Counted from the first letter of the stretch, positions 26,743 to 29,830 are shown. The stretch is 64,000 nt of DNA from an uncultured Poribacteria bacterium (GCA_958295855.1 OY282383.1:106707-170706), one strand, 5' to 3'. Program-made: numbers and translations. Notes: generated by a model not told the origin, from the letters alone.

Positions 26743-26832
26743 TTTGTATCTATTAAGTGGGAGGGAAACCTTGTAAGCCCGATGACTCCTTGTGGGTTCG
26801 TATTCACTTTGCACTGGAAAAGGAGATGGCAC

Positions 26833-27369
26833 ATGGCACGACAACTCAGAATGGTTCGCCCCAATTTAGAAAATTTACCGAAACTAGCACTCCCTGTAGG
26901 CTACGGCATGCGAACCTACCAAGAAGGTGATGAGGTGCATTGGGCAAATATCATCAGCGACTCGTTCGGCGGAAGGCAACGCACTGTGCAAGACACGCAG
27001 GATGAGATTACCGGACGAGATGTGTTTGTCCCCGATGGGCTCTATTTCGCAACGCACCAAGGCATTCCTGTCGGCACTGCCTGTGCGTGGCGGCAATCTG
27101 TTGATGAAACAGATGTTGGATACGTGCACATGGTAGGCGTTGTAGCGCAACACACCGGACACAAACTCGGAAAATGGGTATCGCTCGCGGTCCTCTTCTA
27201 TTTTCGTAACCATGGATTCATAAGTGCCATGCTTGACACCGACGATTTTCGCATCCCTGCTATTAAGACCTATTTGAACTTAGGATTTATACCTGTTTAC
27301 GTTGAAGAAGGGCAACCAGAGCGGTGGCGGGACATCTTTGAAAAATTGGAGATGAGTGCTAGACCCTGA
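26833..27369 (+). CDS. GNAT-family N-acetyltransferase, paralogue 1
   Basis: MARQLRMVRPNLENLPKL...YQEGDEVHWANI...VGVVAQHTGHKLGKWV...LDTDDFRIPAIKTYLNLGFIPVY. Start moved to the ATG at 26833 after aaaaggaga. Confidence 0.7.
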   Translation: MARQLRMVRPNLENLPKLALPVGYGMRTYQEGDEVHWANIISDSFGGRQRTVQDTQDEITGRDVFVPDGLYFATHQGIPVGTACAWRQSVDETDVGYVHMVGVVAQHTGHKLGKWVSLAVLFYFRNHGFISAMLDTDDFRIPAIKTYLNLGFIPVYVEEGQPERWRDIFEKLEMSARP

Positions 27370-27404
27370 AAATCGGAGTAAATCGGTATAACTATCGTTT
27401 TTAC

Positions 27405-27433
27405 TTGACAAAGCGAAATAAATGTGGTATGAT
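27405..27433 (+). promoter_or_regulatory. Consensus-like promoter of tnpA with an extended -10
   Basis: TTGACA (27405-27410), a 17-nt spacer ending in tgg, then TATGAT (27428-27433). The ATG at 27440 lies about 7 nt downstream, so the mRNA could be leaderless. Confidence 0.55.
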
Positions 27434-27439
27434 GTAGGT

Positions 27440-28045
27440 ATGAATAACCTAATGTCACCACAAAAGGCTGCGCAGGTGTTGGATATTTCCATCGAGCACC
27501 TTCGCAGAATGGAAGCCCGCGGCGAAATCGACTGCGTGCGCACTGGAGGCGGGCATCGGCGTTACGATGTCCATAAGTTTGTTGATGCTCAACGTCAACC
27601 AGACATTTCTACCATTTGCTACTGTCGAGTCAGAGGAAAAGCGCAGGCGGACGCCCTCGCCGCGCAAGTCGAATTCATGCAAGAAAGGTACCCTGAAGCG
27701 GAGATTATCCAAGACTTCGGCAGTGGCATCAACTTCAAGCGAAAAGGACTCCAGCGGATATTGGACAGAGTCCTGTGCGGCGATAAACTCCGAGTTGTGG
27801 TCGCCCATCGGGATAGACTCGCCCGCTTCGGCAGCGAAGTCTTTCGATATCTTATCGAGCAAAACGGTGGAGAAGTCGTGGTTCTCAACCAAACTACTCA
27901 CAGTCCCGAACAGGAACTTACTTCCGATTTGCTGGAGATTCTCCACGTCTTTTCCTCACGGCTGTATGGACTCCGACGCTACCGTGACGAAATCAAAGCA
28001 GATACAAATCTTACCCACAACGCCACAGAAAGCGATACTCCGTAG
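27440..28045 (+). CDS. tnpA: IS607-type TnpA (MerR-HTH plus serine-recombinase domain) that lacks the expected nucleophile serine
   Basis: HTH is SPQKAAQVLDISIEHLRRMEARGEI. The recombinase core has YCRVRGKAQ where the family consensus is YARVSSxxQ, followed by DFGSGINFKRKGL and VVAHRDRLARFG. Confidence 0.75.
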   Translation: MNNLMSPQKAAQVLDISIEHLRRMEARGEIDCVRTGGGHRRYDVHKFVDAQRQPDISTICYCRVRGKAQADALAAQVEFMQERYPEAEIIQDFGSGINFKRKGLQRILDRVLCGDKLRVVVAHRDRLARFGSEVFRYLIEQNGGEVVVLNQTTHSPEQELTSDLLEILHVFSSRLYGLRRYRDEIKADTNLTHNATESDTP

Positions 28046-29117
28046 ATGGGAAGGTATCTCACGTTACGTCTACAACGAGGCGGTGAAGCAGTTTAACAAA
28101 GGCCGCAAGGTGTATGCGCCCGACTTGCTAAAAACATTACCTGAGTGGACATCGAATTGTCCTCGACATATCCGTGTCGGTGCAGTGATGGATGCACAGA
28201 AAGCGGTGACTGCAGCACGGCGAAAGTGGAAGGAAACCGGTGAACCGCAACGCGTAAAGTTCCGCAGGAAGAAGAATACCACGAAGTCGTTTTACTTGTG
28301 TGCGCAGTTCATCAAAGCTCATGGTTTCTATGTCAGGTTTCTTGGTGACATGAAGATGACAGAGCCACTGCCTGCGAAGCCACAAGGCCGTGGTAAGAAA
28401 GCCGACAGAGACCATGAAAACGAAGTTAAAGATGGCCGTGTGCTGTTTGAGAATGGCCGGTTTTACATGTGCGTCGCCTACAAGGAAAAAATCAAACCGC
28501 GAGACTCAAGCGGAAATATCGTAGCTCTTGACCCGGGCGTTCGTACGTTTATGACATTGTTTTCAGAAGGCACATTCGGTTGGCTTGGACATCATGCAAT
28601 TAATCGTATCCAGAGGCTCTGCCAACATGCAGATAATCTCTACTCCCGCGCAACGCAGGTGAAACGTCCGCTACGGCGTACCCTGCGACAATGTGCACAG
28701 AAGATTCAAGTAAAAATCCAAAATCTTGTGATGGAACTACACAAGAAAGTCGCACACTTCCTCGTCACAAACTTTGACATCATCCTGCTACCGACTTTTG
28801 AAACGCAGCAGATGATTAAGCGTGGCGCGCGGAAGCTCCGAAAGAAGTCTGTCCGTCAGATGTTGACGCTGTCGCATTACCAGTTCAAGATGTTCCTGAA
28901 GCAAAAGGCTTTAGAATATGGCGTTCTTGTAGTCGATGCCAATGAAGCATATACATCAAAGACGGTCTCATGGACAGGTAACATTGTCGAGAACCTCGGC
29001 GGTGCGAAGGTGATTACTGATGCAGACGGTAATCGGTGTGACAGAGATTTGAACGGCGCACGTGGTATTTTCATATCGGAAATGTCACGTGCTTTGAGGG
29101 TTCCTCCAGCGAGATAA
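27966..29117 (+). CDS. tnpB: TnpB (OrfB_IS605/IS607 type, RuvC-like RNA-guided nuclease family)
   Basis: The N-terminus KQIQILPTTPQKAILRRWEGISRYVYNEAV is typical of TnpB. RuvC-I is ALDPGVRTF, RuvC-II is DANEAYTSKT and RuvC-III is CDRDLNGARGI. Start placed at the ATG at 27966. The ORF-track extension back to 27567 is an out-of-frame overlap of tnpA. Confidence 0.8.
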   Translation: MDSDATVTKSKQIQILPTTPQKAILRRWEGISRYVYNEAVKQFNKGRKVYAPDLLKTLPEWTSNCPRHIRVGAVMDAQKAVTAARRKWKETGEPQRVKFRRKKNTTKSFYLCAQFIKAHGFYVRFLGDMKMTEPLPAKPQGRGKKADRDHENEVKDGRVLFENGRFYMCVAYKEKIKPRDSSGNIVALDPGVRTFMTLFSEGTFGWLGHHAINRIQRLCQHADNLYSRATQVKRPLRRTLRQCAQKIQVKIQNLVMELHKKVAHFLVTNFDIILLPTFETQQMIKRGARKLRKKSVRQMLTLSHYQFKMFLKQKALEYGVLVVDANEAYTSKTVSWTGNIVENLGGAKVITDADGNRCDRDLNGARGIFISEMSRALRVPPAR

Positions 29118-29260
29118 TCGCTGCAAACCACACGGTCGAGATGGTAACGCAATAGACGTTATCTCTGCTCTTGTCACGATTTGTGTAGGTTCAAAGGAAC
29201 AGATGCCTCCTATGTCAGTGCAAATCGTGAACGTTAGAGAAACACTCTCTGAGGAACTGT
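28950..29260 (+). ncRNA. Expected position of the TnpB omega/reRNA (not verified)
   Basis: In characterised TnpB elements the guide RNA scaffold overlaps the 3' end of tnpB and runs to the right IS end. This call rests on position only, and I could not evaluate the structure. Confidence 0.25.
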
Positions 29261-29305
29261 GGGCGAAAGTCTCACGTTAAAAATAGTGTGGAAGATCAGC
29301 TCAAA

Positions 29306-29830
29306 ATGGCTCGGCATGATTTAGAGAATCTGCCGAGGCTCCAGTGTCCTGATGGTTATCACATCCGGACTTATCAGAAAGGGGATGAGGTGCATTGGGC
29401 GCGAATCATGGACAGAGCCTTCGTCGACAAAGGCAGAACTGCCCAGGATGCGTACCGGGATGTCATCAGCCACCCTAATTTTGATCCGGATGGGTTCTTT
29501 TTCGTTCTCCACGAGGGGACACCCATCGGCACGGCATGTGCATGGAATCGATGTCTCCGTGGCAAACGGATTGGTTACATTGACATGCTCGCGGTGCTTC
29601 CAGAGCACACCGGACATAGACTTGGAAAATGGCTAACGGTGTCTGTCCTGCACTATTTTAAAGCGCGGTGTGTGGCGTATGTGATGTTAGACACTGACGA
29701 TTTTCGGCTTTCTGCAATTAAAAATTATCTCAATTTGGCGTTCGTTCCTGTTTATGCTGGCGAAAATCACGGTGAACGTTGGCAGGCAATCTTTGAAAGA
29801 CTAGGTGTTCCCCCTGTTGCAATTGCATAA
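29306..29830 (+). CDS. GNAT-family N-acetyltransferase, paralogue 2
   Basis: MARHDLENLPRL...YQKGDEVHWARI...LAVLPEHTGHRLGKWL...LDTDDFRLSAIKNYLNLAFVPVY. Colinear with the gene at 26833-27369. Confidence 0.7.
   Translation: MARHDLENLPRLQCPDGYHIRTYQKGDEVHWARIMDRAFVDKGRTAQDAYRDVISHPNFDPDGFFFVLHEGTPIGTACAWNRCLRGKRIGYIDMLAVLPEHTGHRLGKWLTVSVLHYFKARCVAYVMLDTDDFRLSAIKNYLNLAFVPVYAGENHGERWQAIFERLGVPPVAIA

What the first reader, a model, noticed from the sequence alone, without database searches (positions are those of the whole stretch)
27440..28045. IS607-type TnpA with the nucleophile serine replaced (RVSS becomes RVRG)
Serine recombinases of IS607 elements carry Y-A-R-V-S-S-x-x-Q near the start of the catalytic domain, and the first Ser is the nucleophile. 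Here the colinear segment reads I-C-Y-C-R-V-R-G-K-A-Q, with codons cga gtc aga gga at 27626-27637. The expected Ser codon is therefore AGA (27632-27634), one nucleotide away from AGC/AGT.

The downstream D-L-x-R-Q is also eroded (ALAAQ). The HTH, the SGINFKR motif and the DRLARFG motif are retained.

The ORF is intact and sits behind a very strong promoter. The element may therefore be immobile while still expressing both proteins, which would fit domestication of the tnpA/tnpB pair.
Basis: partly seen in the sequence, partly recalled or inferred. Interest (0 to 1): 0.6.

Follow-up and report, generated by a model that had tools for sequence, protein, structure and literature searches.

The report
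Serine-less IS607 transposase, recurrent in Poribacteria
One copy of a jumping gene in a sponge-symbiont genome encodes a transposase whose DNA-cutting serine is replaced by arginine. The same swap recurs in about a fifth of this transposase's close relatives but in none of a sister group, so it may be a selected non-cutting regulator rather than plain decay.

Summary
tnpA (27440-28045) is an IS607-family serine transposase, and an ungapped alignment to ISC1904 OrfA puts Arg (AGA, 27632-27634) where the nucleophile Ser belongs. The rest of the active site is intact.

It is not a unique domesticated gene. It lies in a complete 1851-bp IS607/TnpB element, one of six mosaic full copies plus fragments in a Candidatus Poribacteria genome. 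Four copies carry AGA and three keep AGC-Ser. One Ser copy has an intact tnpA and could supply transposase in trans. A sister strain about 1% diverged has the empty site, so this copy inserted or excised recently.

Ser-to-Arg recurs across the clade. Of 119 close TnpA cluster representatives, 27 lack Ser (23 Arg). None of 116 in the sister clade does, and none of 147 wider family representatives has Arg. Other catalytic residues never vary. Ser-less proteins are otherwise clean, and two dead-dead pairs give pN/pS 0.23-0.31.

Best reading: a dead transposase in a non-autonomous but mobile IS copy, with the Arg allele probably favoured as a non-cutting, DNA-binding, trans-dominant subunit. The favoured status is inferred, not shown. 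Neutral decay of a gene that can be supplied in trans is the main rival.

The scan has noted serine-less IS607 TnpAs on other DNA, but those were solitary viral genes.

The parts
26830..27369 (+). GNAT acetyltransferase gene 1. Its last four codons and stop (S-A-R-P-stop) come from the left tip of the IS.
   Evidence: Pfam Acetyltransf_1 E 5e-9. The ORF reads through 27352-27369.
27350..27351 (+). AG at the left junction, the inferred crossover or target dinucleotide, preceded by GG.
   Evidence: AG is the only sequence shared by the left and right junctions of all six copies, and GG precedes it in five of six. The empty-site contig agrees.
27352..29202 (+). IS607-family element of 1851 bp with no terminal inverted repeats and no target duplication.
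   Evidence: The limits of similarity among the six copies define it. Contigs in runs X2-X4 join 27354 directly to 29206, with a 5-nt AGATG ambiguity.
27405..27433 (+). Sigma-70-type promoter of tnpA (TTGACA, 17 nt, TG-n-TATGAT). It probably gives a leaderless mRNA.
   Evidence: It matches 11 of 12 consensus positions with an extended -10. It is conserved in five of six copies.
27440..28045 (+). tnpA: 201-aa IS607 serine transposase with an N-terminal MerR-like HTH and a catalytic domain, carrying Arg at the nucleophile position.
27632..27634 (+). Codon AGA (Arg65) in place of the nucleophile Ser codon AGC.
   Evidence: AGC is found in L019, L020, the L023 fragment and both G006 copies.
27966..29117 (+). 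tnpB: 383-aa RNA-guided nuclease family protein. It overlaps tnpA by 80 nt in the +1 frame.
   Evidence: NF040570 scores 113 bits against a cutoff of 100, and Pfam Cas12f1-like_TNB, HTH_OrfB_IS605 and OrfB_IS605 match. It is intact in all six copies with omega 0.12-0.25.
29118..29202 (+). Non-coding right end, nearly invariant among copies. It is the presumed 3' part of the TnpB guide-RNA scaffold.
   Evidence: One search shows the conservation. No Rfam family matches. The RNA role is inferred from TnpB biology, not tested.
29203..29280 (+). Displaced original tail of GNAT gene 1: 24 codons plus the stop, cut off by the insertion.
   Evidence: The translation is in frame with GNAT1 across the empty-site joint.
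29288..29830 (+). GNAT acetyltransferase gene 2, a paralogue of gene 1.
   Evidence: Pfam Acetyltransf_1 E 5e-11.

Best explanation
The gene encodes an IS607-family TnpA that can no longer cut DNA, because the nucleophile Ser is Arg (AGC to AGA). Every other active-site and interface residue and the DNA-binding HTH are kept. It lies in a complete IS607/TnpB element that is non-autonomous but still mobile, moved by the Ser-bearing TnpA of a sister copy in the same genome.

The Arg allele is not a random hit. Within this Poribacteria IS607 clade, where the nucleophile codon is AGY and Arg is one step away, Ser-to-Arg has arisen or spread repeatedly and is carried by otherwise pristine proteins.

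The most likely mechanism is that Arg-TnpA still binds the element ends and co-assembles with live TnpA, and so acts as a non-cutting, trans-dominant subunit. That would damp excision and transposition of the whole IS family, and with it TnpB-induced breaks at emptied sites. It could also autoregulate its own promoter.

Shown: loss of the nucleophile, multicopy status, mobility of the site, recurrence, and restriction to one clade. Inferred: binding, co-assembly, inhibition, and selection for Arg.
For: Dead nucleophile with the rest intact:
- The ungapped alignment to 3ilx places Arg65 on the nucleophile Ser.
- In 119 close cluster representatives, Y61, C62, R63, D125, R126, L127, R129, G131 and E133 never change and V64 changes once. 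Position 65 needs 15 changes on a tree built without that column, and at least 4 origins of Arg are forced by well-supported branches.

Frequencies:
- In the window's clade, 27 of 119 lack Ser (23 Arg, 2 His, 1 Gly, 1 Asn).
- In the sister clade (TCC/TCN Ser codon in the Poribacteria DNA loci, plus cyanobacterial relatives), 0 of 116 lack Ser.
- In the 150 best 50%-identity representatives of the wider family, 136 of the 147 with a residue there have Ser; only 3-4 others keep an intact YCR(V/I) context and none has Arg there.

Separate Arg alleles:
- Two codons are seen, AGA here and CGT elsewhere, with His = CAT.
- Three local contexts are seen: KAQ, KSQ and KGQ.

Ser-less proteins are not decaying:
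- They average 0.30 deviations at 84 conserved columns, against 1.03 for Ser forms.
- Dead-dead pairs look selected. L031(Arg)-L032(His) give 13 synonymous and 13 nonsynonymous differences, pN/pS 0.31, p 0.003. L045(Arg)-L049(Arg) give 11 and 8, pN/pS 0.23, p 0.0015. Ser-Ser pairs have median omega 0.22.

Mobility and a source of transposase in trans:
- L031 and L032 share only the 1.95-kb element and not their flanks.
- An empty site for the window copy exists in a strain about 1% diverged, and four left flanks seen in that sample are absent from this genome.
- An intact Ser TnpA, 193/201 identical, lies in the same genome.
- A sister assembly holds at least 4 different intact Arg genes beside 2-3 Ser genes.
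- All three JGI metagenome hits to the KSQ haplotype, found with a pattern that allowed Ser, Arg, His or Asn, were CGT.

A possible rationale for Arg specifically: IS607 dimers are held inactive by two acidic helix-E residues that contact the active-site arginines (PMC4058570). The two invariant acidic residues E159 and D163 here lie in the aligned stretch and may be their counterparts, which I did not verify. An extra Arg could strengthen that lock. This is inference.
Against: - No biochemical or expression data exist.
- pN/pS below 1 is not decisive. The window compared with L018, a copy whose tnpA is clearly broken by a hairpin insert, also gives 0.18. The low ratios can therefore be inherited or imported by gene conversion, and the copies are visibly mosaic.
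- The CGT allele sits on an identical local haplotype in L031, L045 and L049. It may have one mutational origin spread by recombination, so the number of independent origins may be as low as 2-3.
- Positions 66-68 next to the nucleophile are also variable in this clade, with 10-14 changes each.
- In this genome tnpA is also knocked out by another route, a REP-like insert in four full copies and one fragment. That fits simple dispensability of tnpA in each copy.
- The sequences are related, so the frequency contrasts overstate significance.
- If Arg-TnpA were a strong inhibitor, the continued spread of Arg elements needs explaining.
Confidence: 0.5

Rival explanations
1. Ordinary decay of a gene that can be supplied in trans. 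TnpA can come from any live copy, so each copy's own tnpA is dispensable. Ser-to-Arg is simply the commonest single-step loss from an AGY codon (3 of 8 nonsynonymous paths). Arg copies are young non-autonomous elements that hitch-hike and outnumber autonomous ones, as MITEs do. The Arg protein has no function.
For: - In this genome only 1 of 7 tnpA copies is potentially active. Four full copies and one fragment are broken by a REP-like insert, three of which also carry Arg.
- tnpB is under clear purifying selection (omega 0.12-0.25), while tnpA omega ranges from 0.2 to 0.95.
- Arg clades are shallow in the tree.
- pN/pS below 1 is also seen against a definite pseudogene.
- An internally deleted Arg derivative exists (L124).
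- An ORF-less IS607-like element was noted in this genome by an earlier report (e1-1428355).
Against: - Random first hits should strike the other roughly 80 conserved positions as well. Those average 1.2 deviating sequences per column against 27 at the nucleophile, and the catalytic Arg and Asp residues show none.
- The sister clade and the wider family show almost no loss of the nucleophile.
- Transitions from AGT would give Gly or Asn, yet Arg, which needs transversions, dominates.
- Ser-less proteins carry fewer, not more, rare substitutions.
Confidence: 0.36
2. Host domestication of this tnpA/tnpB pair. On this view the element is fixed and immobile at this locus, and both proteins now serve the cell.
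For: The ORFs are intact and the promoter is strong.
Against: - The element is multicopy with conserved ends.
- The locus is empty in a sister strain.
- No orthologous position is shared across species.
- The insertion truncates a GNAT gene rather than forming an operon with it.
Confidence: 0.04
3. Arg-TnpA is still a working transposase, using another nucleophile or read through recoding.
For: Arg elements have moved. Some Arg forms have a Ser three residues later (RVRGKSQ).
Against: - The window protein has no Ser anywhere in residues 65-68.
- All serine recombinases use this Ser (PMC4058570).
- AGA and CGT are both ordinary Arg codons, and AGA encodes a conserved Arg elsewhere in the same gene.
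- Live Ser copies co-reside and explain the mobility.
Confidence: 0.02

Closest known systems
IS607-family TnpA serine transposases (IS607 of H. pylori, IS1535, ISC1904, ISC1926; PDB 3ilx, 3lhf, 6dgc, 6dgb)
   Same: - N-terminal MerR-like HTH followed by a serine-recombinase catalytic domain.
- tnpB downstream and overlapping.
- No inverted repeats and no target duplication; simple insertion at a dinucleotide.
- NF033518 passes its cutoff.
   Different: - The nucleophile Ser is Arg.
- The ends and target carry AG (target GGAG) instead of the GG reported for IS607 (PMC6188088).
- The whole clade reads Y-C-R-V-S-G rather than Y-A-R-V-S-S.
Transposon-encoded transposition inhibitors made from defective or shortened transposases (Tn5 Inh, IS1 InsA, Drosophila P-element KP repressor, mariner dominant-negative copies). 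This comparison rests on my own knowledge.
   Same: The protein is encoded by the element itself, keeps DNA binding and multimerisation but lacks catalysis, and arises and spreads within a transposon population.
   Different: Those inhibitors are truncations or alternative products of DDE transposases. Here a full-length serine transposase carries a single swap at the nucleophile. Inhibition is not shown here.
Solitary serine-less IS607 TnpA relics in giant viruses and jumbo phages
   Same: An IS607 TnpA-derived protein that has lost the catalytic Ser yet keeps an intact ORF and HTH.
   Different: Those are single-copy genes at fixed positions, without tnpB or transposon ends, and have usually lost other catalytic residues as well. 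Here only the nucleophile is changed, inside a complete, multicopy, mobile IS.
Laboratory nucleophile mutants of serine recombinases such as Ser10 substitutions of gamma-delta/Tn3 resolvase. This comparison rests on my own knowledge.
   Same: Loss of the Ser abolishes cleavage while DNA binding and synapsis remain.
   Different: Those were made in the laboratory. Here the substitution is natural and recurrent, and almost always to Arg.

Membership tests
IS607-family insertion sequence (the element) | tnpA encoding an N-terminal HTH plus a serine-recombinase catalytic domain | tested here: met
   NF033518 scores 159 bits against a cutoff of 110. PF00239 scores E 1e-14. PDB 3ilx scores E 4e-27.
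IS607-family insertion sequence (the element) | tnpB (RNA-guided nuclease family) immediately downstream | tested here: met
   NF040570 scores 113 bits against a cutoff of 100. The gene overlaps tnpA by 80 nt.
IS607-family insertion sequence (the element) | No terminal inverted repeats and no target-site duplication; simple insertion | tested here: met
   The empty-site contig joins 27354 to 29206. The shared AGATG is explained by the AG crossover plus a chance ATG. No inverted repeats link the ends.
IS607-family insertion sequence (the element) | GG dinucleotide at the ends and at the target (as in IS607 of H. pylori) | tested here: not met
   The junctions share AG, while GG lies just 5' of it in five of six copies. 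This is a variation within the family and is based on only six copies.
Catalytically competent serine recombinase or transposase | Nucleophile Ser in the R-V-S motif | tested here: not met
   Arg65 (AGA) aligns with the Ser of ISC1904 and with the Ser of 92 of 119 close relatives.
Catalytically competent serine recombinase or transposase | Active-site Arg and Asp residues (R63, D125, R126, R129) and the SG-I-N motif | tested here: met
   All are present and invariant in the clade.
Domesticated (exapted) transposase gene | Single copy at a fixed orthologous locus, with transposon ends lost | tested here: not met
   There are six full copies with conserved ends. The site is empty in a sister strain. 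Related Arg/His elements lie in unrelated flanks.
Domesticated (exapted) transposase gene | Purifying selection after loss of catalysis | tested here: inconclusive
   Two dead-dead pairs give pN/pS 0.23-0.31, but a comparison with a definite pseudogene gives a similar value, and recombination is rife.
Transposon-encoded trans-dominant transposition inhibitor | Keeps the DNA-binding and oligomerisation surfaces while lacking catalysis | tested here: met
   It is 193/201 identical to the Ser form of the same genome and deviates at only three conserved columns, deviations the Ser form appears to share. This is by sequence only.
Transposon-encoded trans-dominant transposition inhibitor | Lowers transposition of live copies in trans | not testable with these tools
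   This needs a transposition assay.

The most novel reading that the evidence does not exclude
Ser-to-Arg at the nucleophile is a positively selected 'anti-transposase' allele. On this reading, a full-length serine transposase is converted by one nucleotide into a trans-dominant, end-binding inhibitor or regulator that sweeps through IS607/TnpB populations in sponge symbionts by transposition and gene conversion. It would be accessible only where the Ser codon is AGY, which would explain why one clade shows it in 23% of variants and the sister clade in none.
Probability: 0.35. Interest if true: 0.75.

Novelty: new variant of a known kind. Interest (0 to 1): 0.58.

Why it matters
IS607/TnpB elements are the ancestors of Cas12 and are now genome-editing tools, yet how their transposition is kept in check is poorly known. 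A natural, recurrent, single-residue conversion of the transposase into a non-cutting form would be the first self-limiting mechanism described for serine transposases.

It would also show how codon choice at a catalytic residue shapes the evolutionary options of a mobile element. If instead it is neutral, it remains a clear example of division of labour: tnpB is kept in every copy while tnpA is supplied in trans.

Both outcomes can be tested directly with a small transposition assay.

Tried and rejected
- Sequencing or assembly error was rejected. AGA occurs in four copies, in eight distinct proteins from other assemblies, and in the contigs of four runs.
- A misaligned serine was rejected, because the PDB alignment has no gap and no Ser lies in residues 65-68.
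- 'DLxRQ erosion' was rejected as a feature of this copy, because it is clade-wide.
- Rfam with permissive thresholds found nothing in 27200-29500.
- No direct repeats were found in the left or right end at seed 6. An apparent AAATCG(G) motif in the ends was not pursued, because the first copy of it is not conserved among elements.
- No RNA holder was listed for the stretch, so expression is untested.
- The contigs show no alternative letter at 27632-27637, but contigs drop rare variants. I do not use this to claim that the Ser allele is rare.
- A JGI metagenome scan for the window's own haplotype found nothing.
- The careful tree did not finish, so quick trees were used.
- L031 and L032 were tested for a shared orthologous locus and have none.
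- One search was an empty script.
- Structure and complex prediction were not run. They could not give side-chain distances here, and a dimer of 96%-identical proteins would pass trivially.

Full report
**What is there.** The ORF at 27440-28045 (+) encodes 201 aa. It passes the NCBIfam equivalog model for IS607 transposases (NF033518, 159 bits against a cutoff of 110) and Pfam Resolvase (E 1e-14), with weak MerR and HTH_17 hits at the N-terminus. Its best solved relatives are the catalytic domains of the archaeal IS607-family transposases ISC1904 (3ilx, E 4e-27), 3lhf, 3lhk and ISC1926 (6dgc).

The alignment to 3ilx has no gap around the active site: Y-A-R-V-S-S-N-T-Q-K-D-D-L-A-N-Q lies over Y-C-R-V-R-G-K-A-Q-A-D-A-L-A-A-Q. 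Arg65, codon AGA at 27632-27634, therefore occupies the position of the nucleophile Ser.

A second gene, 27966-29117 in the +1 frame, overlaps tnpA by 80 nt and is a TnpB (NF040570, 113 bits against a cutoff of 100). A near-consensus promoter (TTGACA, 17 nt, TG-n-TATGAT; 11 of 12 positions) ends 6 nt before the ATG, so the message is probably leaderless.

**The element and its copies.** The window lies in a 5.55-Mb genome (G000). The related loci found all come from Candidatus Poribacteria, which are sponge symbionts.

The genome holds six full-length copies at 89-95% nucleotide identity, plus fragments. Their common sequence runs from just after an AG at 27350-27351 to an AG at 29201-29202. 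There are no inverted repeats.

tnpB is open in all six copies (383-397 aa) and evolves under purifying selection (omega 0.12-0.25).

The state of tnpA differs between copies:
- Only the window copy (Arg) and L020 (G000:C1:331647-332249, Ser) have an intact tnpA.
- L017, L018, L019, L021 and the fragment L023 carry a 35-38-nt hairpin insert after codon 41, which brings a stop.
- The nucleophile codon is AGA in the window, L017, L018 and L021. It is AGC in L019, L020 and L023.

All four combinations of insert and codon occur, and the copies are obvious mosaics, so gene conversion among copies is frequent.

A related genus (G006) has two intact copies, both AGC. AGC is therefore ancestral, and AGA arose in this lineage by one C-to-A change.

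Other, distant IS607 families in the same genome keep the canonical Y-A-R-V-S-S and D-L-x-R-Q.

**Mobility.** Public contigs from one sample (X1) reproduce the occupied site exactly. In a second sample (X2-X4), a contig about 1% different in the flank runs up to 27354 and continues with the sequence found at 29206 onward, matching 29 of 30 letters. This is the empty site.

The insertion is thus polymorphic between close strains and makes no target duplication. The five shared letters AGATG are explained by the AG crossover plus a chance ATG. The insertion cuts 24 codons off the upstream GNAT gene. Four other left flanks seen in that sample are absent from this genome.

The family is therefore active in the population, and this Arg-bearing copy has inserted or excised since the strains split. 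'Immobile' and 'domesticated' do not fit. The live Ser protein of L020 is 193/201 identical and is the obvious source of activity in trans.

**The wider pattern.**
- Among the 120 closest 90%-identity cluster representatives, the clade motif is Y-C-R-V-S-G-K. With the window added, 27 of 119 full-length proteins lack the Ser: 23 Arg, 2 His, 1 Gly, 1 Asn.
- On a tree built without that column, position 65 needs 15 changes. Y61, C62, R63, D125, R126, L127, R129, G131 and E133 need none, and V64 needs one. Well-supported branches alone force at least four origins of Arg.
- In DNA, the other Arg alleles are CGT and His is CAT. The Ser relatives use AGT or AGC.
- Two controls show the loss is specific to this clade. 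In the sister clade, whose Poribacteria DNA loci use TCC or TCN for the Ser, together with cyanobacterial relatives, 116 of 116 scorable representatives keep Ser. In 150 representatives of the wider family, 136 of the 147 with a residue at that position keep Ser. Only three or four proteins with an intact Y-C-R-V/I context have lost it, and none to Arg.

From AGY, Arg is reachable in one step. From TCN it is not.

**Are the Arg forms decaying?** They do not look it.
- At 84 columns that are at least 95% conserved, Ser-less proteins average 0.30 deviations against 1.03 for Ser forms. The nucleophile column has 27 deviating sequences against a mean of 1.2 per conserved column.
- Two pairs in which both members are dead give pN/pS of 0.31 (L031 Arg against L032 His: 13 synonymous and 13 nonsynonymous differences, p 0.003) and 0.23 (L045 against L049: 11 and 8, p 0.0015). 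This is like Ser-Ser pairs, whose median omega is 0.22.
- L031 and L032 share only the element and not their flanks, so the dead element moved after the change.
- Their tnpB genes are intact. The single 'stop' is the natural end, five codons early.
- A sister assembly carries at least four different intact Arg genes beside two or three Ser genes.
- All three JGI metagenome matches to the KSQ haplotype were CGT, although the pattern also allowed the Ser, His and Asn codons.

**Caveats.**
- The low pN/pS is not decisive. The window against L018, whose tnpA is certainly broken, also gives 0.18, so low ratios can be inherited or imported by gene conversion.
- The CGT allele lies on one identical local haplotype in two tree clades. 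It may be one mutation spread by recombination.
- Positions 66-68 are also variable in this clade.
- In this genome tnpA is also inactivated by hairpin insertion, which fits plain dispensability.
- The sequences are related, so simple frequency tests overstate significance.

**Interpretation.** It is essentially certain that this protein cannot perform serine-recombinase cleavage, because the eponymous Ser is the nucleophile in all family members (PMC4058570). It is also well supported that the copy is a non-autonomous member of an active IS family.

The step beyond that is inference. Three things argue that Arg at this position is favoured rather than tolerated: the excess of loss at the nucleophile alone, the preference for Arg over the Gly and Asn that transitions would give, and the cleanliness of the Arg proteins.

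The mechanism that fits best is a non-cutting subunit that still binds the ends and joins TnpA assemblies. IS607 transposition uses multiple TnpA dimers at the ends (PMC6188088). Such a subunit would poison or damp transposition in trans, and with it the TnpB-made breaks at emptied sites. This is analogous to Tn5 Inh, IS1 InsA or P-element KP (from my own knowledge).

A structural rationale for Arg is that IS607 dimers are kept inactive by two acidic helix-E residues that hold the active-site arginines (PMC4058570). E159 and D163 are invariant acidic residues in the aligned stretch and may correspond to that pair, which was not verified. An extra Arg could lock that state.

I give this reading 0.5, neutral decay with hitch-hiking 0.36, host domestication 0.04 and residual activity 0.02.

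**Relation to known things.** By homology and anatomy the element is a member of the IS607 family. As an enzyme, its TnpA fails the defining test of a nucleophile Ser.

I found no paper describing natural nucleophile replacement in IS607 TnpA or IS607 in Poribacteria. Earlier reports of this scan describe serine-less IS607 TnpAs, but as solitary, fixed genes of giant viruses and jumbo phages that lack tnpB and ends. This case differs in being a one-residue change inside complete, multicopy, mobile elements.

I class it as a new variant of a known kind, namely defective-transposase derivatives within transposon populations.

Noticed in passing
window 27563/27564 (site of the insert in other copies); L017-L019, L021, L023; L020 and L021 near the tnpB 3' end: A roughly 30-nt palindrome (GGTAT..CCCC(T)GC-TTT-GC(A)GGGG..ATACC) has about 280 loose-pattern matches in the genome. 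It is inserted after codon 41 of tnpA in four full copies and one fragment, leaving a 41-residue fragment that spans most of the HTH. It is also inserted in frame (13 aa) near the C-terminus of TnpB in two copies. It belongs to the REP-like families already noted for this genome.
   Followed up: partly
window 27350-27354 and 29201-29280: An empty-site allele exists in a strain about 1% diverged. The insertion removes the last 24 codons of the upstream GNAT gene and replaces them with S-A-R-P. The element lies between two paralogous GNAT genes.
   Followed up: yes
window 27350-27351 and 29201-29202; all six copies: The junctions share AG, with GG just upstream on the left in five of six copies (target GGAG). 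IS607 of H. pylori is reported to use GG as the crossover.
   Followed up: partly
window 27440-27964 against 28047-29114, and L031/L032: Synonymous divergence of tnpA is only about a third of that of tnpB between the same copies (dS 0.04-0.14 against 0.12-0.40 here; 0.13 against 0.38 for L031/L032). This could be homogenisation of the tnpA half by gene conversion or an extra constraint on its DNA.
   Followed up: no
window 29174-29183 and 29221-29230: A perfect 10-nt inverted repeat (TCACGATTTG / CAAATCGTGA) has one arm inside the right end and the other in the flank where the TnpB guide would be read. The flank arm is also present in the empty-site allele.
   Followed up: no
L124 (JGI contig Ga0209544_1044038): An internally deleted derivative of an Arg-type element. 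The left end and the first roughly 430 nt of tnpA are joined directly to the 3' end of tnpB and the right end.
   Followed up: partly
Sister-clade loci L060-L108; G005, G013, G039, G042 and others: Many copies of the TCC-codon sister clade show one TGA inside the tblastn match to TnpA. The position was not examined. It may simply be a shorter natural C-terminus.
   Followed up: no
window 27422-27440: Gene callers start the protein at an upstream ATG (207 aa, M-W-Y-D-V-G-M). That ATG lies inside the -10 region of the promoter, so the 201-aa leaderless form starting at 27440 is more likely.
   Followed up: no
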